Of a stretch of 20,000 bases of DNA, positions 171-17,984 are shown in pieces. This DNA is from Candidatus Heimdallarchaeota archaeon. Lineage in GTDB: Archaea > Asgardarchaeota > Wukongarchaeia > Wukongarchaeales > JBHIFL01. Numbering within the stretch: the first letter of the stretch is position 1; each line of letters starts with the position of its first letter. The position numbers and the translations under genes are program-made. The stretch covers positions 72,716-92,715 of the forward strand of contig JBHIFL010000001.1 in assembly GCA_046761065.1 (NCBI GenBank), given 5' to 3'. Under the pieces are notes generated by a model. It was not told the origin of the DNA, did not search any database, and saw nothing but the letters and a program-made list of their open reading frames with translations.

Positions 171-971
171 TTATTTGTCAATTACAGCTTCCAATGTCGC
201 TCTGCAGGCATCATCCACACTACACAAGCGACTTAAGGCATCATCAAGACTTCCTCCTTTTTTCTGCCCCAATCTAACAAAGTCTATTATAATAAAACGG
301 TCTTCCCCTGTTTGTTGATTTTCGACTGATACAATGAGTTGGGGGCAGTAAAATACGCCCGCGTTGGTCACCTCTGTGAACAACGCGTTATCGGGTAACC
401 CTAATCGCATTAGAAAGGAAAATCTCACTCCGGAAATCTGGGCAAGCCGTCGAGTGAGTTGGTCTTCTCTGATTCGGGTAGCTTTTGATGTAGGCAAAAA
501 TAGACTCATGGTCTGCATTCTTCGGTGGATTTGGCGAAGTTCCTGCGCCATTTCTTGCCGTTCGATGTCGATTTCAGTACGATATTCAAGTAATTTGTCA
601 AAAATGGTGGGGATGTCTGCTGTTTCAACAGATCCCACCACTTCTTGGGATGGGTTATGATTTACCAACTCCAATTCATGGATATCCGGACGAAACAGAG
701 ATAAAAGATCATTCTCCTCCACCACGCAGGAGCTGAACATAGCGTTGAGAGCTGTCATTCCCGATCCGGTATTTTCTTGGTTAAAACTTGGATCATTCCC
801 TTCGTTGGTGAATTCATAGCGGATTTTATAATACGGCATCCAAATCTTTGTTTCCGAGCAAACAGTTTCTAGAATCCGTCTATGTATTAGACCTTTTCTT
901 GCGAGATTTTTGTTAATGGTTTTCTCAATTTCCATTCTTTCGATTGCAGGTATTTGAACTACCTTGATCAT
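171..971 (-). CDS. Hypothetical protein (266 aa), no family recognised
   Basis: Long ATG-initiated ORF with GGCGG about 9 nt upstream. The central segment is rich in charged residues (EIDIERQEMAQELRQIHRRMQ). I recognise no catalytic or family motif. The antisense ORF 364-660 is judged spurious. Confidence 0.55.
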   Translation of the reverse strand: MIKVVQIPAIERMEIEKTINKNLARKGLIHRRILETVCSETKIWMPYYKIRYEFTNEGNDPSFNQENTGSGMTALNAMFSSCVVEENDLLSLFRPDIHELELVNHNPSQEVVGSVETADIPTIFDKLLEYRTEIDIERQEMAQELRQIHRRMQTMSLFLPTSKATRIREDQLTRRLAQISGVRFSFLMRLGLPDNALFTEVTNAGVFYCPQLIVSVENQQTGEDRFIIIDFVRLGQKKGGSLDDALSRLCSVDDACRATLEAVIDK

Positions 972-9849: not shown

Positions 9850-10515
9850 TTAGATTGAAACTGTTTCGCCAGGTTTCAGAATCCTAACCTCCGCCGCTTC
9901 ACCTACAAGCTTTTTGAACTCCTCCGCATCTTGTTCTATCGCCGGGAAGGTATTGAAGTGACAGGGAATTGCAATCTTCGGATAGAGCATCCGGATCGCT
10001 TCTGCAGCTTCCCTCGGTCCCATTGTGTACGTCGATCCAATCGGAATCAAAACGACTTTCGGCAAGTAGAGTTTCGCAAGGAGTGCCATATCCCCGAATA
10101 CCGCAGTGTCTCCCGGAAAATAGATCGGGCCTTCTGAAAGGTGAACAATAAAGCCACAAGGCATACCCCTTTCACATGAATGGAAGGCTTGTGTAAATGT
10201 GATGGGAATATTTGTTGGGGTCACAACAGTCCCTCCAATATTGCCTCCAATCGCACATTTAACCCCACCCTTCTCTGCTTCGATAGCAAGCTCATGAACT
10301 CCTATAAAACATGCATCATGTTGTTTGCAGATTGTTGCCGCATCATTAAACCCGTGATCCTCATGATCGTGTGTAACGCAAACGATATCCACCTGCTGGA
10401 TTTCTTCTACGCTTTTAAATGGGTTTGTCGGGTTAGCCGTGATCCAAGGGTCAAACAGAACTACAACTTCACTTTCTACCATGAATGCGGCATGGCCGAG
10501 CCAAGTGATTTTCAT
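9850..10515 (-). CDS. UPF0173-type metal-dependent hydrolase (metallo-beta-lactamase fold)
   Basis: MKITWLGHAAF N-terminus and THDHEDHG metal-binding motif. I prefer ATG at 10515 (GAGGT 7 nt upstream) over the track's TTG at 10521. Confidence 0.8.
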   Translation of the reverse strand: MKITWLGHAAFMVESEVVVLFDPWITANPTNPFKSVEEIQQVDIVCVTHDHEDHGFNDAATICKQHDACFIGVHELAIEAEKGGVKCAIGGNIGGTVVTPTNIPITFTQAFHSCERGMPCGFIVHLSEGPIYFPGDTAVFGDMALLAKLYLPKVVLIPIGSTYTMGPREAAEAIRMLYPKIAIPCHFNTFPAIEQDAEEFKKLVGEAAEVRILKPGETVSI

Positions 10516-10700
10516 TATCAAACCTCGTTGAAATTCATTATTTCGTTCTTATCTTATATTTGGTGATCCCGTCCAGTTTTTTTACTTTCTGTCATTAACC
10601 AACGAGCCTACCATTAAAGTCCCATGGTTATCCAAGAGTAATCATCCTTTCTACGAATCCGTTAATCCCTAAAAATATTTACAGTGATAATGATCTTAGC

Positions 10701-10716
10701 AAAAGATTAATAATTG
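10701..10716 (+). promoter_or_regulatory. Putative archaeal BRE/TATA promoter for the permuted 5S transcript
   Basis: aaaagattaataattg has an A-rich BRE-like run plus a TTAATAAT TATA-like box. It is centred about 27 nt upstream of the first base of the leader stem (10737). Confidence 0.35.
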
Positions 10717-10736
10717 AATTTAATTCACCATTACTC

Positions 10737-10895
10737 ACTGCAGTGGAGCCGAAAGATAAGCTCGTTTCCGTTCTTGAGTGTACTACGCTGCGAGAGCGCG
10801 TGGGAAATCAGGGAAGCTACCATTTCTCTGAGGTGGTGGCCAGAGGGGCGAGGAAACTCCCGGTCTCATTCCGAACCCGGAAACTCCATTGCAGT
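10737..10895 (+). rRNA. 5S rRNA gene in circularly permuted order, including leader/trailer processing stem
   Basis: 10755-10822 matches the 3' half: GATAAGC-CTCGTTTCC-GTTCTTGAGTGTACTACGCTGCGAGAGCGCGTGGGAAATCAGGGAA-GCTACCA. Compare H. marismortui GAUAAGCCCACCAGCGUUCCGGGGAGUACUG..GCGAG..UGGGAAACCCGGUUCGCCGCC. Loop CTCTG at 10826-10830 caps helix I. 10831-10880 matches the 5' half: GGTGGTGGC-CAGA-GGGGCGAGG-AAACT-CCCGGTCTCATTCCGAACCCGG. Compare Sulfolobus CACCCGGACUCAUUUCGAACCCGGAAGUUAAGC. Flanking 12-bp stem 10737-10748/10884-10895. Confidence 0.8.
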
Positions 10896-11064
10896 CTATT
10901 TCTTCAATTTATTTCCCAAAAAGGGATTAGATGTTTTGTTTTTAACTGAATTTCAGAGGCTCATTAATAATAGGATCCAAATCAATGGTTGAATGGCAGA
11001 ATGAGATAGTTGTCCTTATCCAAAACTCCTAGTTTTATAACTTCACTTCGTCCTGTAGTTTTAG

Positions 11065-11664
11065 TCAATGTTCTGGAGGGATGGTTTCTATAATACCTCC
11101 TTTCTCTGGAGTGATGACTAGAACATCAATTCCATCCCCCGATGTAGCTTCTCGCCGTGAAGCCATCCGAATAGTCTCGATCACAAGTTCTCGTCCCTTA
11201 TTTGTTGTGATATCAGTAAAATAGCCATCTTCAAGGACCCCAATAGCAATTTGAGCACCTGTTCCAGTTGCCGCATAGTCTTCAGCCATCAGACTCCCAA
11301 TGGGATCCAATACATAAATATGGTTGCCTTTTTTGTCGGTCCCACCAACTATCGGTTCAACATAATATGGAAATATCCGGTTATTAAAAAGAACATTCGC
11401 CATGAGCTTTGCTGCAGTGCGGGTACCAATCATTTCCCCCTCTCGTTCCAAGTTATAGAGATTCACATAAGCCTTGATTAACCGAACAATTTGCTGGGAG
11501 TCGCTGAAAAGTCCTGCCACTGCGGCTCCGATTCTTTCATCAACTAAAAACACTTTTCGAACATTTCTGGATTGGATGAACCTTCCTAATGCCATCCGTT
11601 TCTCCGCAGCTAGAACGACTCCATCAGTACAACTTAACCCTACAGCTGTTGCTCCTGCAATCAT
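11065..11664 (-). CDS. psmB: Proteasome beta-type subunit with Thr1 replaced by Ala (predicted non-catalytic)
   Basis: Gap-free alignment to T. acidophilum and M. jannaschii beta subunits: G|ATAVGLSCTDGVVLAAEKR..RK versus G|TTTVGI...TERR..KK. Glu17 and Lys33 equivalents are present. An in-frame TAA lies 5 codons upstream of the ATG, so no longer propeptide is possible. Confidence 0.88.
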   Translation of the reverse strand: MIAGATAVGLSCTDGVVLAAEKRMALGRFIQSRNVRKVFLVDERIGAAVAGLFSDSQQIVRLIKAYVNLYNLEREGEMIGTRTAAKLMANVLFNNRIFPYYVEPIVGGTDKKGNHIYVLDPIGSLMAEDYAATGTGAQIAIGVLEDGYFTDITTNKGRELVIETIRMASRREATSGDGIDVLVITPEKGGIIETIPPEH

Positions 11665-15801: not shown

Positions 15802-16866
15802 CTATAATGATCTTCCCGCCCCATGACATTCAATAGTAACAGGTTCCCCAAGTCGTCCAATTACATTAAATTCGGCTCCTGCAATGGTTTCACATAGTTC
15901 AATAGCTGTAATAGCATGTAATGTAAGTTCTGTGCAGCCTATTCGACTAACACCATCAGCCAACGCCATCCAAACGATCAATTGATCTGAGAGGTGTTTG
16001 TCGATGGGCTTATTTCGCTGTAATTGAGAAATGAACTGACGTGCAGCTTCTTCTCCAACATGTTCGGCCTTTTTACCCCGTTCACCTAATGAATCCGCCC
16101 CAATAATAGCACCTAAGGAGGATTTAGCCCATAGAACAATCCCTGATCCGGGGGATCTAGCGCTCATATCGGTTTTAACTTCGATTGATACCTCGTTGAG
16201 CCCGTGTTTGGCAAGGGTACGCCTCGCAGATCGAGCTTGCCTTTCCGCCACATGTCTTGGCAGCTTTGAGCAATAAGATATGCCCTCAATGGCCTCAATT
16301 TTTCCTCGTTCAGGCAGAACAATGGGATTTATTTTATGAATCGGTGTTGCTTCGACTTCGACCAGTCCACCCCCTTTAGGATAGTAACCACGTCTCACTA
16401 GGTTCACAGTGGGTTCAAATCCCATATGTGTGGAGAGGATCGGAAGAAAAACGTTGGTCATATAGGGAATTGGAGGGGCCCACTTGACACTCGTCCCCCC
16501 CATTATTTTCAGGGAGGATCTGACTTGCGTGAATGCGAATACTGGAAGCACACATTGCAGGAGCAAAGTGATACTTCCAGCAGTTCCAATATCAATTGAA
16601 AAAGAACCCCCTCGAATTGATTTAGGAGAAAATCGTACCTCCATGCTGTTCTCCTCTAATCCCCACATCTCAGCTCCGCATACCCTTCCGACCAGCCTCA
16701 CAGCTTGCCTATGTTGCGGTCGAAGTCCAGGATTTTTTCGTTTCTTTCTGATATTATAGACTCTGATTTGACGGCCATAAATAGCTGCTAACGCCACGGC
16801 ATTACGTAACAGTTGCCCTCCGCCCTCACCTTGAGAGCCATCGATGTCTATTAGGCCTTCATGCAT
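15802..16866 (-). CDS. rtcA: RNA 3'-terminal phosphate cyclase
   Basis: N-terminal IDIDGSQGEGGGQLLRNAVALAAI is the RtcA signature. Length ~350 aa. Conserved H in DKHLSDQLI, the adenylylation-site region. Confidence 0.88.
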   Translation of the reverse strand: MHEGLIDIDGSQGEGGGQLLRNAVALAAIYGRQIRVYNIRKKRKNPGLRPQHRQAVRLVGRVCGAEMWGLEENSMEVRFSPKSIRGGSFSIDIGTAGSITLLLQCVLPVFAFTQVRSSLKIMGGTSVKWAPPIPYMTNVFLPILSTHMGFEPTVNLVRRGYYPKGGGLVEVEATPIHKINPIVLPERGKIEAIEGISYCSKLPRHVAERQARSARRTLAKHGLNEVSIEVKTDMSARSPGSGIVLWAKSSLGAIIGADSLGERGKKAEHVGEEAARQFISQLQRNKPIDKHLSDQLIVWMALADGVSRIGCTELTLHAITAIELCETIAGAEFNVIGRLGEPVTIECHGAGRSL

Positions 16867-17040: not shown

Positions 17041-17313
17041 CTAAACTTTACGTTCAGTTTTAGAACGGATATTAACAAGACCACGATGAACCGCACAACT
17101 GACGCAGTAATATACAATCCTTCGCTCCCTGGGAATGTAACTTCCACGTTGACGGAGTTCACGTCCGAGGACTGGATCTACTAGACTGCTGTACCGCGTC
17201 TTCTTTTTTGCTTTATCACGAGGAACCATCTGGCCACAAGCCGTACACTGAACCATCGAGCTTCGGCCTTTCTTTCCTTTTGTACGGCCTCGAGATTTTC
17301 GTTTTTTTCCCAA
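17041..17313 (-). CDS. rps26e: Small-subunit ribosomal protein eS26
   Basis: MGKKRKSRGRTKGKKGR basic N-terminus. Cys pairs CTAC ... CVSC. IPRERRIVYYCVSCAVHRGLV is typical of S26e. TTG start. Confidence 0.88.
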   Translation of the reverse strand: MGKKRKSRGRTKGKKGRSSMVQCTACGQMVPRDKAKKKTRYSSLVDPVLGRELRQRGSYIPRERRIVYYCVSCAVHRGLVNIRSKTERKV

Positions 17314-17537: not shown

Positions 17538-17984
17538 TTATTCATCAAAAAGTATTTGGATATCACCTGTTAGATCCCGAGTGGCCTTCTCGAAGATTTC
17601 CGCCACACGGTGTGCATACTTCCGTAAGACCCGAATGGCTAACCCAAGTGAACGAGATTCGCGACTGGCACCAATCAAGATGAACCGTCCCGCATTGGCC
17701 AAGATGGTATAACCGGTTTCCCCACGTACCATGACTTCCCACATTTCGGGGCCATGATCCATACGTGAGACTACCATCTCACCAGTACTTAAGACCGCAG
17801 CGGCTATTGCTGCAAAGAGATCAGGATCTGCATCTGTTTCGGTAAAAAAAGCAACTCGTACACCTTCGCGGGTAACCAAAGCGAGAGCATCCATATCGCA
17901 GTATTTAACGATCTCCTGTAAAAGTTGATAAAGTTCTGTTTTTTGTTCAGCAGTAAGAGCAAATTCTCCAGCTAATTCGTTCAC
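17538..17984 (-). CDS. Roadblock/LC7 (MglB-like) domain protein
   Basis: About 148 aa. ALALVTREGVRVAFF ... AAAVLSTGEMV ... GYTILANAGRFILIGASRE pattern is characteristic of the Roadblock/LC7 fold. GTG start. Confidence 0.72.
   Translation of the reverse strand: MNELAGEFALTAEQKTELYQLLQEIVKYCDMDALALVTREGVRVAFFTETDADPDLFAAIAAAVLSTGEMVVSRMDHGPEMWEVMVRGETGYTILANAGRFILIGASRESRSLGLAIRVLRKYAHRVAEIFEKATRDLTGDIQILFDE

What the first reader, a model, noticed from the sequence alone, without database searches (positions are those of the whole stretch)
10737..10895. Circularly permuted 5S rRNA gene bracketed by a BHB-like processing stem
Every canonical 5S element is present on the plus strand, but in rotated order.

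Order as encoded:
- 10755-10769: loop B / helix II 3' strand (GATAAGC-CTCGTTTCC).
- 10770-10815: helix V, loop E and helix IV (GTTCTTGA.GTGTACTAC.CGCT-GCGAG-AGCG.TGGGAAA.TCAGGGAA).
- 10816-10825: helix I 3' strand, running straight into a 5-nt loop CTCTG (10826-10830).
- 10831-10840: helix I 5' strand. The capped helix I has 10 bp, 3 of them G.U.
- Then loop A, the helix II 5' strand (GGGGCGAG) and helix III / loop C (CCCGGTCTCATTCCGAACCCGG, ending at 10880).

The normal 5' and 3' ends are therefore covalently joined. The gene's own ends fall between CCCGGAA and GAUAAGC, which are contiguous in every 5S I know.

The sequence just outside those ends pairs: 10737-10748 with 10884-10895 (12 bp, one G.U). 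The stem continues as trailer bulge AAA (10881-10883), a 3-bp helix CCG/CGG (10749-10751 with 10878-10880), and leader bulge AAA (10752-10754). This has the topology of an archaeal bulge-helix-bulge motif, although the canonical central helix is 4 bp.

Cutting in both bulges and ligating would give ...CCCGGAA-AGATAAGC..., restoring the consensus junction in a circle of roughly 129 nt.

Circular pre-16S/23S intermediates, permuted tRNAs, a permuted SRP RNA (Thermoproteus) and a permuted 23S (Pyrococcus) have been reported. I am not aware of a permuted or circular archaeal 5S rRNA.

Alternative reading: the RNA stays linear and the leader/trailer helix persists as an extra arm.
Basis: partly seen in the sequence, partly recalled or inferred. 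Interest (0 to 1): 0.92.

Follow-up and report, generated by a model that had tools for sequence, protein, structure and literature searches.

The report
Circularly permuted 5S rRNA gene (Asgard)
This Heimdallarchaeota genome, and at least 17 other Asgard-type archaeal sequences, encode 5S ribosomal RNA with its two halves in swapped order, flanked by a signal for the tRNA-splicing enzymes that would rejoin them, probably as a circle. That would explain why 5S genes go "missing" in these closest archaeal relatives of eukaryotes.

Summary
Window 10737-10895 (+) holds every 5S rRNA element in rotated order.

- **Order:** the 3' half (loop B, helix II 3' strand, helices V and IV, helix I 3' strand) comes first. 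A 3-nt loop caps helix I. The 5' half follows (helix I 5' strand, loop A, helix II 5' strand, helix III, loop C).
- **Rfam:** two sub-threshold 5S hits in swapped order, none above threshold.
- **Rotation test:** the rotated sequence aligns without gaps to haloarchaeal 5S genes. A covariance model built only from rotated Asgard sequences hits canonical 5S end to end (99-112 bits). On native loci it gives only two partial hits.
- **Distribution:** a permutation-specific pattern found 18 distinct permuted genes. Labelled sources are Heimdall-, Hod-, Njord- and Helarchaeota and Promethearchaeati. None reaches the Rfam threshold.
- **Covariation:** 94% of cells paired, and 25 of 35 pairs show double changes.
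- **Flanks:** a leader/trailer helix of unrelated sequence sits in a fixed register (12 of 12 pairs covary). Then come a 3-nt trailer bulge, a 3-4 bp helix and leader AAG, a relaxed bulge-helix-bulge motif.

Cleavage, ligation and circularity are inferred, not shown. I found no prior report.

The parts
10705..10715 (+). A/T-rich TATA-like box (GATTAATAATT), about 27 nt upstream of the leader stem. Putative archaeal promoter of an independent transcription unit.
   Evidence: Read from the sequence. The block is conserved in syntenic relatives L002 and L004. Other lineages carry TTTAAA/TTTATAAA boxes 25-50 nt upstream of their stems. The promoter role is inferred, not tested.
10737..10748 (+). 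Leader strand of the outer leader/trailer helix (helix h of the BHB-like motif).
   Evidence: 12 bp with 10884-10895. Across 15 genes, 12 of 12 pairs change on both sides and 92% of cells are paired, against 25-42% when the partner is slid.
10749..10752 (+). Leader strand of the central helix H (CCGA). It pairs with 10878-10880 (CGG). A10752 lies opposite C10877 and is unpaired. It mimics the 5' strand of helix III.
   Evidence: pair 1 is C-G in 15 of 15, pair 2 is C-G in 11 and U-G in 4, pair 3 is G-C in 15 of 15, and pair 4 forms in 5 of 15. Co-folding leader with trailer gives this helix in nearly every lineage.
10753..10755 (+). Leader (5'-strand) bulge AAG. The predicted endonuclease cut lies between A10754 and G10755.
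   Evidence: The consensus is C(C/U)G(G/A)-A(A/G)G-N-UAAGC in 15 of 15 genes. The cut position follows the canonical rule, taken from my own knowledge, of cutting between bulge nucleotides 2 and 3. It is inferred.
10755..10882 (+). Permuted 5S rRNA body (128 nt). This is the predicted excised and end-joined product.
   Evidence: Two swapped Rfam partial hits. Gap-free alignment to canonical 5S after rotation. Model R1 results. The circular minimum-energy fold gives the three-armed 5S structure.
10761..10769 (+). Helix II 3' strand (U10767 bulged). It pairs with 10845-10852.
   Evidence: 92-96% of cells paired, with 4-5 pairs changed on both sides.
10771..10814 (+). Helix V (10771-77 with 10808-14), loop E, helix IV (10783-91 with 10796-10803) and loop D (GAGA, 10792-95).
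   Evidence: All helix V pairs covary. Helix IV is 95-97% paired.
10816..10840 (+). Helix I closed into a hairpin: 3' strand 10816-10826, cap loop UCU 10827-10829, 5' strand 10830-10840. The conventional 5' and 3' ends are covalently joined here.
   Evidence: In relatives the cap is UUCG (7 times), CUCG, GCAA, GUAA, GUUA and others, on a helix of 7-14 bp. Six of 9 helix I pairs covary.
10841..10859 (+). Loop A (CAGA), helix II 5' strand (10845-52) and loop B. U10858 and C10859 pair with A10756 and G10755 next to the junction.
   Evidence: The junction-flanking pairs are G-C in 15 of 15, and N-N as CG 6, UA 5, AU 4.
10860..10880 (+). Helix III (10860-65 with 10873-80) and loop C (UCAUUCC).
   Evidence: Rfam hit to model positions 28-51. 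100% of cells paired.
10881..10883 (+). Trailer (3'-strand) bulge AAA. The predicted cut lies between A10882 and A10883.
   Evidence: Exactly 3 nt (AAA or AAU) between CGG and the outer helix in 15 of 15 genes.
10884..10895 (+). Trailer strand of the outer leader/trailer helix.
10896..10925 (+). T-rich tract (TTTCTT, TTTATTT). Putative archaeal oligo-T terminator.
   Evidence: Read from the sequence. Relatives have T6-T8 runs just after the trailer. The terminator role is inferred.

Best explanation
This is the working 5S rRNA gene of a Heimdallarchaeota archaeon, circularly permuted at the DNA level.

**Proposed pathway.**
1. The gene is transcribed from its own promoter as a precursor of about 160-190 nt. 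In it the 3' half of 5S precedes the 5' half, and helix I is closed by a small loop.
2. Leader and trailer pair into a 12-bp helix.
3. With a 3-nt trailer bulge (AAA), a short central helix and a leader bulge (AAG), this forms a relaxed bulge-helix-bulge motif. In the central helix, leader CCG displaces the identical 5' strand of helix III from CGG.
4. The broad-specificity (alpha-beta)2 splicing endonuclease of Asgard archaea cuts in both bulges.
5. An RtcB-type ligase joins ...CCCGGAA to GAUAAGC..., rebuilding the canonical loop B.
6. The product is a 128-nt covalently closed 5S rRNA that folds like any other 5S and enters the ribosome.

**Shown here.**
- The permuted order.
- Its conservation and covariation.
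- The fixed geometry of the flanking motif.
- The exact restoration of the canonical junction.

**Inferred.**
- Cleavage by EndA.
- Ligation.
- Circularity of the mature RNA.
- That this is the only 5S gene in the genome.
For: **Permutation.**
- Rfam gives two 5S partial hits in swapped order and nothing at threshold.
- The rotated sequence matches haloarchaeal replicons in a single colinear BLAST segment (query 8-109, 72-74% identity, E 1e-7).
- Those targets are canonical 5S genes (83-90 bits, downstream of 23S).
- The alignment is gap-free and includes an identical junction, CGGAAGATAAGC.
- Model R1, built only from rotated Asgard sequences, hits canonical 5S over positions 1-123 of 123. 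Scores are 99-112 bits for haloarchaea and 67.5 bits for a eukaryote-type 5S.
- On native Asgard loci R1 gives only two adjacent partial hits (window: 47.1 and 31 bits).

**Function.**
- There are 18 distinct permuted genes from independent assemblies.
- In the rotated frame 94.4% of cells are paired against 34-50% for slid controls. Twenty-five of 35 pairs change on both sides, and 0 of 500 shuffles reach this. The native frame agrees.
- RNAalifold predicts the same helices independently.
- Helix I is capped by UUCG or GNRA tetraloops.
- One MAG related to Heimdallarchaeaceae has two copies, both permuted.
- None of the 18 loci scanned (16 distinct genes) has a canonical 5S.

**Processing motif.**
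- The outer helix sits in the same register in 15 of 15 genes, with unrelated sequences. All 12 pairs covary.
- The trailer bulge is 3 nt in 15 of 15, and the central C(C/U)G pairs with CGG in 15 of 15.
- Co-folding of leader and trailer recovers the motif in nearly every lineage.
- The bulge-on-3'-strand-first topology matches the canonical BHB. This comparison rests on my own knowledge of pre-tRNA BHB anatomy.
- Canonical cuts give CGGAA|G(A/U/C)UAAGC, the same length and sequence as the Rfam consensus CggAAguUAAGc.
- Asgard archaea carry the (alpha-beta)2 EndA with the L1 loop, which accepts relaxed motifs (PMC5829648).
- The BHB and mature-like conformers differ by only 3.5 kcal/mol.

**Precedent and plausibility.**
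- The permuted SRP RNA of Thermoproteus is circularised by the same machinery (PMC4731332).
- E. coli tolerates a 5S whose native ends are joined by a tetraloop (PMC7283268).
Against: - No RNA data exist. Cleavage, ligation and circularity are untested.
- The motif is not a strict hBHBh'. The fourth central pair forms in only 5 of 15 genes (A.C in the window), and no inner helix h' closes the leader bulge.
- The central helix must compete with helix III.
- The conserved core (CCG/CGG, AA) is invariant, so it offers no covariation.
- Four lineages are irregular. L010 and L014 have a hairpin inserted in the leader. L011 (Helarchaeota) has an asymmetric internal loop. L024 has an imperfect stem.
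- I could not search the rest of this genome for a colinear 5S gene.
- The 5' cut could lie one nucleotide upstream, giving a 129-nt product.
Confidence: 0.66

Rival explanations
1. Linear permuted 5S rRNA. The gene is functional, but the ends are never ligated. Either the leader/trailer helix is trimmed or cut away, leaving a nick in loop B, or it persists as an extra arm on the helix II/III domain. The mature RNA would be a linear molecule with a capped helix I and its termini in loop B.
For: - The permutation, capped helix I and covariation fit this as well as they fit a circle.
- The two pairs that flank the junction, G10755-C10859 and A10756-U10858, covary strongly and could hold a nicked loop B together.
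- The BHB is imperfect.
- Brown-algal mitochondrial 5S is permuted in the final linear product (PMC4267664).
Against: - A static arm does not explain the strictly fixed 3-nt bulge and the 8-nt leader spacing, while stem length (5-16 bp) and sequence vary freely.
- It also does not explain why canonical BHB cut sites fall exactly where the canonical junction is restored.
- From general knowledge, every known archaeal RNA excised at a BHB (tRNA introns, pre-16S, pre-23S, Thermoproteus SRP RNA) is ligated into a circle.
Confidence: 0.2
2. Circular intermediate that is re-opened. BHB cleavage and ligation make a circle. A second nuclease then opens the helix I cap, giving a conventional linear 5S with normal ends. 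[quoted passage not shown]
For: - Circular pre-rRNAs are usually re-linearised in archaea (PMC12918454; PMC10515664).
- Permuted tRNAs end up linear (cited in PMC4267664).
Against: - The caps are stable UUCG or GNRA tetraloops, or short loops, with no conserved sequence. They sit on helices of 7-14 bp, which looks like structural closure and not a processing site.
- No conserved second motif was seen in the alignments.
Confidence: 0.1
3. A rearranged relic or assembly artefact. On this view it is a broken 5S pseudogene, or a chimeric contig, with the real 5S gene elsewhere.
For: - The native locus fails the Rfam threshold.
- I could not scan the rest of the genome.
Against: - The same architecture appears in 18 distinct sequences from NCBI, JGI, ENA and Logan assemblies.
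- Compensatory changes occur in every helix.
- The syntenic position is conserved in the window's clade.
- A TATA-like box and a T-rich tail are conserved.
- One MAG carries two permuted copies.
Confidence: 0.02

Closest known systems
Permuted SRP RNA gene of Thermoproteus tenax (Plagens et al. 2015, PMC4731332)
   Same: - An archaeal structural RNA gene whose halves are swapped in the DNA.
- The canonical gene was reported missing by annotation.
- The new termini lie in a BHB-type motif cut by the tRNA splicing endonuclease.
- Ligation gives a functional circular RNA.
   Different: - It is a different RNA family and a different lineage (Crenarchaeota).
- Circularisation and cleavage were shown experimentally there. 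Here they are only predicted.
- The 5S case spans several Asgard lineages, not one genus.
Circular pre-16S/23S rRNAs, circular 23S and permuted Pyrococcus 23S (PMC12918454, PMC7758197)
   Same: A leader/trailer helix carrying a BHB. EndA cleavage and ligation circularise a ribosomal RNA. In some archaea the circle is the mature form.
   Different: - Those genes are colinear in the DNA. Any permutation arises afterwards, by re-opening elsewhere.
- 5S was explicitly described as not using this pathway.
- Here the gene itself is permuted, so ligation is needed to restore loop B.
Permuted tRNA genes of Cyanidioschyzon merolae (Soma et al. 2007, cited in PMC4267664)
   Same: The 3' half is encoded upstream of the 5' half. 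The native ends are joined by an intervening sequence. A BHB lies at the new termini and a circular intermediate forms.
   Different: It is a eukaryotic nuclear gene. The circle is re-opened to give a linear tRNA.
Permuted mitochondrial 5S rRNA of brown algae (Valach et al. 2014, PMC4267664)
   Same: A natural 5S in which helix I is a closed hairpin and the termini lie elsewhere. Standard 5S models miss it.
   Different: - It is organellar.
- The ends lie at the three-way junction (between the alpha and gamma domains), not in loop B.
- The order of the beta and gamma domains is kept.
- There is no BHB and no circularisation.
Engineered cp5S in E. coli (Huang et al. 2020, PMC7283268)
   Same: The native 5S ends are joined by a tetraloop and the molecule is opened elsewhere. 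The ribosomes work and the cells live.
   Different: It is artificial. It is opened in loop C or D and tethered into 23S rRNA.
Canonical archaeal 5S rRNA (Rfam RF00001)
   Same: All helices and loops match after rotation, with no indels relative to haloarchaeal 5S.
   Different: The gene order is rotated and helix I is capped. The native locus scores 24 and 19 bits against a 38-bit threshold.

Membership tests
5S rRNA (RF00001) | Helices I-V and loops A-E with the conserved loop A, C and E sequences | tested here: met
   all helices are supported, 94% of cells are paired, and 25 of 35 pairs covary; gap-free alignment to three canonical haloarchaeal 5S genes.
5S rRNA (RF00001) | Colinear 5'-to-3' order, scoring at or above the Rfam gathering threshold (38 bits) | tested here: not met
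   The native window locus gives 24.2 and 19.4 bits in swapped order. None of the 18 permuted loci scanned reaches threshold.
5S rRNA (RF00001) | Full-length homology to canonical 5S once the permutation is undone | tested here: met
   model R1, built from rotated sequences, hits canonical 5S over positions 1-123 of 123 at 99-112 bits (haloarchaea) and 67.5 bits (eukaryote-type); a single colinear BLAST segment.
5S rRNA (RF00001) | Presence in the large ribosomal subunit | not testable with these tools
   This needs ribosome purification or cryo-EM.
Archaeal bulge-helix-bulge (hBHBh') endonuclease substrate | Outer helix h of at least 2 Watson-Crick pairs closing the exon-side bulge | tested here: met
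   The helix is 5-16 bp in 15 of 15 genes, in a fixed register, and 12 of 12 pairs covary. The definition comes from PMC7714728.
Archaeal bulge-helix-bulge (hBHBh') endonuclease substrate | Two 3-nt bulges on opposite strands, with the 3'-strand bulge next to h | tested here: inconclusive
   The trailer bulge is exactly 3 nt (AAA or AAU) in 15 of 15 genes. The leader AAG is unpaired in the co-folds but opens into a multiloop and is not a closed bulge.
Archaeal bulge-helix-bulge (hBHBh') endonuclease substrate | Central helix H of 4 bp | tested here: not met
   Three pairs are conserved in 15 of 15 genes. The fourth forms in 5 of 15 and is A.C in the window. The spacing still equals four positions.
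Archaeal bulge-helix-bulge (hBHBh') endonuclease substrate | Inner helix h' closing the intron-side bulge | tested here: not met
   No contiguous h' exists. The motif is of the relaxed hBH/BHL type, which the L1-loop (alpha-beta)2 EndA of Asgard and TACK archaea is reported to accept (PMC5829648).
Archaeal bulge-helix-bulge (hBHBh') endonuclease substrate | Cleavage by EndA in both bulges | not testable with these tools
   This needs an in vitro assay or 5'/3' end mapping.
Permuted RNA genes matured through a circular RNA (Thermoproteus SRP RNA type) | 3' half encoded upstream of the 5' half, with the native ends joined by a short linker | tested here: met
   Cap loops are 3-6 nt.
Permuted RNA genes matured through a circular RNA (Thermoproteus SRP RNA type) | Processing motif placed so that cut and ligation restore the canonical sequence | tested here: met
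   The predicted junction CGGAA|G(A/U/C)UAAGC equals the Rfam consensus CggAAguUAAGc and haloarchaeal CGGAAGATAAGC.
Permuted RNA genes matured through a circular RNA (Thermoproteus SRP RNA type) | Detection of the circular RNA (junction reads, RNase R resistance) | not testable with these tools
   No transcriptome data can be reached from here.
Permuted RNA genes matured through a circular RNA (Thermoproteus SRP RNA type) | Absence of a canonical gene copy in the genome | tested here: inconclusive
   There is none in the window or in the 18 loci scanned. Both copies in one MAG are permuted. The literature reports that 5S could not be predicted in closed Heimdallarchaeum genomes. Whole genomes could not be scanned.

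The most novel reading that the evidence does not exclude
Across a large part of the Asgard archaea the only 5S rRNA gene is circularly permuted, and the 5S rRNA in the ribosome is a covalently closed circle made by the tRNA-splicing endonuclease and ligase. The lineages seen here are Heimdallarchaeia (Hodarchaeales, Njordarchaeales, relatives of Heimdallarchaeaceae, and the window's clade) and Helarchaeales. This would be the first circular 5S rRNA, and the first ribosomal RNA gene known to be permuted at the DNA level in a free-living cell. It would also explain why 5S genes are "missing" from Asgard genomes.
Probability: 0.45. Interest if true: 0.95.

Novelty: new variant of a known kind. 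Interest (0 to 1): 0.9.

Why it matters
- **A universal RNA with a changed topology.** 5S rRNA is treated as an essentially invariant, linear, colinearly encoded molecule. A recent paper explicitly excludes it from the archaeal BHB/circularisation pathway.
- **Phylogenetic position.** The permuted 5S gene that needs the tRNA-splicing machinery sits in the archaeal lineages closest to eukaryotes.
- **A practical puzzle.** It explains why 5S could not be found even in closed Heimdallarchaeum genomes. Such MAGs fail the rRNA criteria for "high quality" because Rfam-based annotation misses every one of these genes.
- **Essential work for EndA and RtcB.** It adds a new essential substrate for these enzymes.
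- **A natural experiment.** It parallels the engineered cp5S ribosomes and bears on whether 5S needs free ends for assembly.
- **An evolutionary question.** Was the permuted form present in the archaeal ancestor of eukaryotes and later reverted?
- **A tool.** The pattern and the covariance model built here allow systematic annotation.

Tried and rejected
- **Rfam at gathering threshold.** No 5S in the window or in the 18 permuted loci scanned. The permissive search was needed.
- **RF00001 on the rotated sequence.** I did the converse. I built a model from rotated sequences and scored real canonical 5S genes with it. I also ran BLAST and MAFFT against haloarchaeal 5S.
- **Pattern false positives.** L025 and L027 are normal eukaryote-type 5S genes (92 bits) with a chance CCGAAC..GGAA downstream. 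I excluded them.
- **Coding reading.** ORF 10714-10992 (92 aa, TTG start) overlaps the gene. It has no Pfam match. A 5-nt indel in L002 and the compensatory changes are incompatible with coding.
- **Taxonomy of the unlabelled MAGs.** Exact cluster look-up returned no organism names. A homology search placed the L010/L014 MAG near Heimdallarchaeaceae.
- **More Heimdallarchaeaceae copies by synteny.** Loci L031-L034, fetched through the E1-like gene and including the closed 4.94-Mb genome CP070695.1, have no 5S nearby.
- **A strict BHB in L010, L014, L011 and L024.** These are irregular and I left them out of the register statistics.
- **ARAGORN.** It missed the long tRNA-like Rfam hits next to the 5S in L006 and L018.
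- **Literature.** Ten full-text searches found no permuted or circular archaeal 5S. Subscription-only papers are not covered.
Full report
**1. What is in the window**

The window comes from a Candidatus Heimdallarchaeota MAG. Its proteasome beta subunit is 100% identical to an NCBI protein of that name, and the contig is Logan SRR29324586_24465.

The feature lies on the + strand, in the 543-nt gap between an MBL-fold hydrolase gene (9850-10521, -) and the proteasome beta gene (11065-11664, -). No tRNA and no Rfam family reaches threshold anywhere in the window.

- Leader 10737-10748 pairs with trailer 10884-10895 (12 bp, one G.U).
- GAUAAGC and the helix II 3' strand lie at 10755-10769.
- Helix V, loop E, helix IV and loop D lie at 10771-10814.
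- Helix I is closed into a hairpin at 10816-10840 (10-11 bp, 3 G.U, loop UCU).
- Loop A and the helix II 5' strand follow at 10841-10852.
- Helix III and loop C lie at 10860-10880.
- The 171-nt region folds with a z-score of -3.6.

**2. Is it a rotated 5S?**

There are two RF00001 hits in swapped order, both below the 38-bit threshold:
- 10742-10825 scores 24.2 bits. The alignment is nominally global (model 1-120), but only the 3' half of the model finds matching sequence and 40 model positions are skipped.
- 10859-10882 scores 19.4 bits and covers model positions 28-51 (helix III and loop C).

The Rfam tool cannot take an edited sequence, so I tested the rotation in three other ways.

- *BLAST.* I opened the predicted product (10755-10882) in the helix I cap and searched it against annotated plasmids and megaplasmids. 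It matched haloarchaeal replicons in one colinear segment that crosses the predicted ligation junction (query 8-109, 72-74% identity, E 1e-7). Those targets are canonical 5S genes just downstream of 23S (83-90 bits).
- *MAFFT.* The rotated sequence aligns to three of these genes with no internal gap from helix I to helix I. The junction CGGAA|GATAAGC is identical in all four sequences.
- *Covariance model.* Model R1 was built only from 17 in-silico rotated Asgard sequences. It hits canonical haloarchaeal 5S end to end (positions 1-123 of 123, 99-112 bits, E 1e-25 to 1e-29) and a eukaryote-type 5S at 67.5 bits. On native Asgard loci it gives only two adjacent partial hits. In the window these are 10741-10825 (47.1 bits) and 10831-10904 (31 bits).

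The predicted 128-nt circle also folds, by minimum energy alone, into the three-armed 5S structure.

**3. Relatives**

*Synteny.* The arrangement proteasome gene, element, MBL-fold gene is kept in metagenomic relatives whose proteasome proteins are 75-80% identical. All carry the same permuted element with the same leader and trailer. They show compensatory changes, such as A-U to G-C in helix I, and a 5-nt indel in the cap loop.

*Pattern search.* I wrote a pattern that only a permuted gene should match: TAAGC N16-20 GTACT N17 GGGAA N50-80 CCGAACNNGGAA. The loop B, loop E and helix IV blocks must come before loop C.
- Across 185,579 species genomes it found 9 loci. The labelled records are Hodarchaeota, Njordarchaeota, Helarchaeota (Hel_GB_B) and Promethearchaeati. 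Four MAGs are labelled only "archaeon".
- One of those four has two copies. Its E1-like protein is closest (72%) to Heimdallarchaeaceae.
- JGI metagenomes gave 13 more loci.
- By my own estimate, a random match is expected about 0.2 times. The realistic false positive is a normal 5S followed by a chance CCGAAC..GGAA. Two such cases, L025 and L027, were recognised and dropped.
- In total there are 18 distinct permuted genes from NCBI, JGI, ENA and Logan assemblies.
- I scanned 18 of the permuted loci (16 distinct genes, including the unusual L024) with Rfam. None reaches the gathering score and none carries a canonical 5S. This is why annotation pipelines miss them.

**4. Evidence that the RNA is functional**

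- In the rotated alignment (17 sequences) 94.4% of pair cells are standard pairs, against 34-50% when partners are slid by 1-3 columns. Twenty-five of 35 pairs change on both sides, and 0 of 500 shuffles reach the observed values.
- Every helix contributes, including helix I (6 of 9 pairs covary).
- The native-order alignment of 15 sequences gives the same picture. RNAalifold predicts the same helices independently.
- Helix I is always closed. The caps are UUCG (7 times), CUCG, GCAA, GUAA, GUUA or short loops, on stems of 7-14 bp. This looks like a structural cap, not an accident of rearrangement.
- Each gene has an A/T-rich TATA-like box upstream and a T-rich run downstream. Promoter and terminator roles are inferred.

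**5. The flanking motif**

In 15 genes from at least six sequence groups the architecture is the same:

outer helix / C(C/U)G(G/A) / A(A/G)G / N-UAAGC ... (C/A/U)CGG / AA(A/U) / outer helix

- The outer helix is 5-16 bp and its sequences are unrelated between lineages. It always ends exactly 8 nt before UAAGC and restarts exactly 3 nt after CGG.
- All 12 of its pairs change on both sides, and 92% of cells are paired against 25-42% for slid controls.
- L008 and L017 differ by G.U/U.G to A-U/U-A at adjacent pairs.
- The two paralogues L010 and L014 share a leader but have different trailers. Each trailer pairs with a different upstream segment.
- Leader C(C/U)G pairs with the invariant CGG in 15 of 15 genes. 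The fourth position pairs in 5 of 15.
- Co-folding leader and trailer alone recovers outer helix, 3-nt bulge and a 3-4 bp helix in nearly every lineage.

The topology is that of a canonical BHB: the 3'-strand bulge lies next to the outer helix, then four positions, then the 5'-strand bulge. This comparison rests on my own knowledge of pre-tRNA BHB anatomy. The formal definition is in PMC7714728.

Applying the canonical cut between bulge nucleotides 2 and 3 gives ...CGGAA and G(A/U/C)UAAGC.... Joined, they equal the Rfam consensus CggAAguUAAGc and the haloarchaeal sequence, with no nucleotide gained or lost. In the window this means cuts at 10754/10755 and 10882/10883 and a 128-nt product.

Two pairs next to the junction covary strongly: G10755-C10859 is invariant, and A10756-U10858 occurs as CG 6, UA 5, AU 4. 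The rebuilt loop B is therefore under selection.

**6. Where the motif departs from a strict BHB**

- The central helix uses the 3' strand of helix III. Leader CCG is a copy of the helix III 5' strand and must displace it.
- The two conformers differ by only 3.5 kcal/mol (-62.2 against -58.7).
- No inner helix h' closes the leader bulge, so this is a relaxed hBH/BHL-type motif.
- The trailer site, however, sits in a regular helix / 3-nt bulge / 4-bp helix context in either conformer.
- Asgard archaea are reported to have the (alpha-beta)2 EndA with the L1 loop, which confers broad specificity for relaxed motifs (PMC5829648).
- Four lineages are irregular: a leader hairpin insertion in L010 and L014, an asymmetric loop in Helarchaeota L011, and an imperfect stem in L024.

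**7. Mechanism and rivals**

| Reading | Confidence |
|---|---|
| Cut in both bulges by EndA, ends joined by an RtcB-type ligase, circular 5S | 0.66 |
| Linear permuted 5S, nicked in loop B or with the stem retained | 0.2 |
| Circle re-opened at the helix I cap | 0.1 |
| Relic or assembly artefact | 0.02 |

The best-supported reading is transcription of a permuted precursor, EndA cuts in both bulges, and ligation that restores loop B and yields a circular 5S. The genomic facts are shown. The enzymology and the circle are inferred from the motif and from the rule that known BHB-excised archaeal RNAs are circularised (PMC4731332; PMC12918454).

Capping helix I is compatible with ribosome function in E. 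coli (PMC7283268).

**8. Comparison with what is known**

- The closest system is the permuted SRP RNA gene of Thermoproteus, which the splicing endonuclease circularises.
[quoted passage not shown] The last has different break points and is not circular.
- Ten full-text searches found no permuted or circular archaeal 5S. A 2026 paper states that 5S, unlike 16S and 23S, does not go through circularisation. Subscription-only literature was not covered.
- I therefore rate this a new variant of a known kind: BHB-dependent permuted RNA genes, now including a ribosomal RNA and the Asgard archaea.

**9. Limits**

- No transcript data could be reached.
- The rest of the source genome could not be scanned for a colinear 5S.
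- The pattern needs exact motifs, so the taxonomic distribution is a lower bound.

Noticed in passing
window 15802-16866 (-): An RNA 3'-terminal phosphate cyclase gene (RtcA; Pfam RTC 261 bits plus RTC_insert) lies about 5 kb from the permuted 5S. RtcA makes the 2',3'-cyclic phosphate ends that RtcB-type ligases use. The proximity may be coincidence.
   Followed up: partly
window 17041-17313 (-) and 17538-17984 (-): Ribosomal protein eS26 and a Roadblock/LC7 protein. Both fit an Asgard origin for the contig.
   Followed up: partly
window 10714-10992 (+): A 92-aa TTG-start ORF overlaps the whole 5S locus. It has no Pfam match, and a 5-nt indel in relative L002 breaks the frame. It is spurious.
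   Followed up: yes
L010:1452-1603 (-) and L014:7725-7876 (-): Two permuted 5S copies in one MAG related to Heimdallarchaeaceae (CAZEQQ01). They share an identical leader with an inserted 8-bp hairpin (CAUCUAAC...GUUGGAUG). Their trailers differ, and each pairs with a different distal leader segment. The processing motif here is a three-way junction or a distal BHB.
   Followed up: partly
L006:3294-3379 (+) and L018:5418-5517 (-): Long tRNA-like Rfam hits (86 and 100 nt, probably intron-containing) lie 80-240 nt upstream of the permuted 5S in Hodarchaeota-type loci. ARAGORN did not call them. Possible co-location of two splicing-endonuclease substrates.
   Followed up: partly
window 10755-10756 with 10858-10859 (A2 columns 19-20 with 128-129): A 2-bp helix immediately next to the predicted ligation junction covaries perfectly (G-C in 15 of 15; N-N as CG 6, UA 5, AU 4).
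   Followed up: yes
L024:1462-1613 (-), contig Ga0326728_10000123 (312 kb): A divergent permuted 5S with a UUCG-capped helix I but an imperfect leader/trailer stem. Its taxonomy is unknown.
   Followed up: partly
L030:398-519 and 594-715 (+): The Natronorubrum bangense plasmid carries two tandem canonical 5S genes downstream of 23S.
   Followed up: no
L013:3164-3285 (+): A weak extra hit of the rotated-5S model (19.4 bits, E 0.003) lies about 250 nt upstream of the permuted 5S. It is probably noise.
   Followed up: no
L008 and L009: In this group the permuted 5S lies next to a PCNA-like gene and a small GTPase gene. The synteny differs from the window's clade, so the gene has moved while keeping its permuted form.
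   Followed up: no
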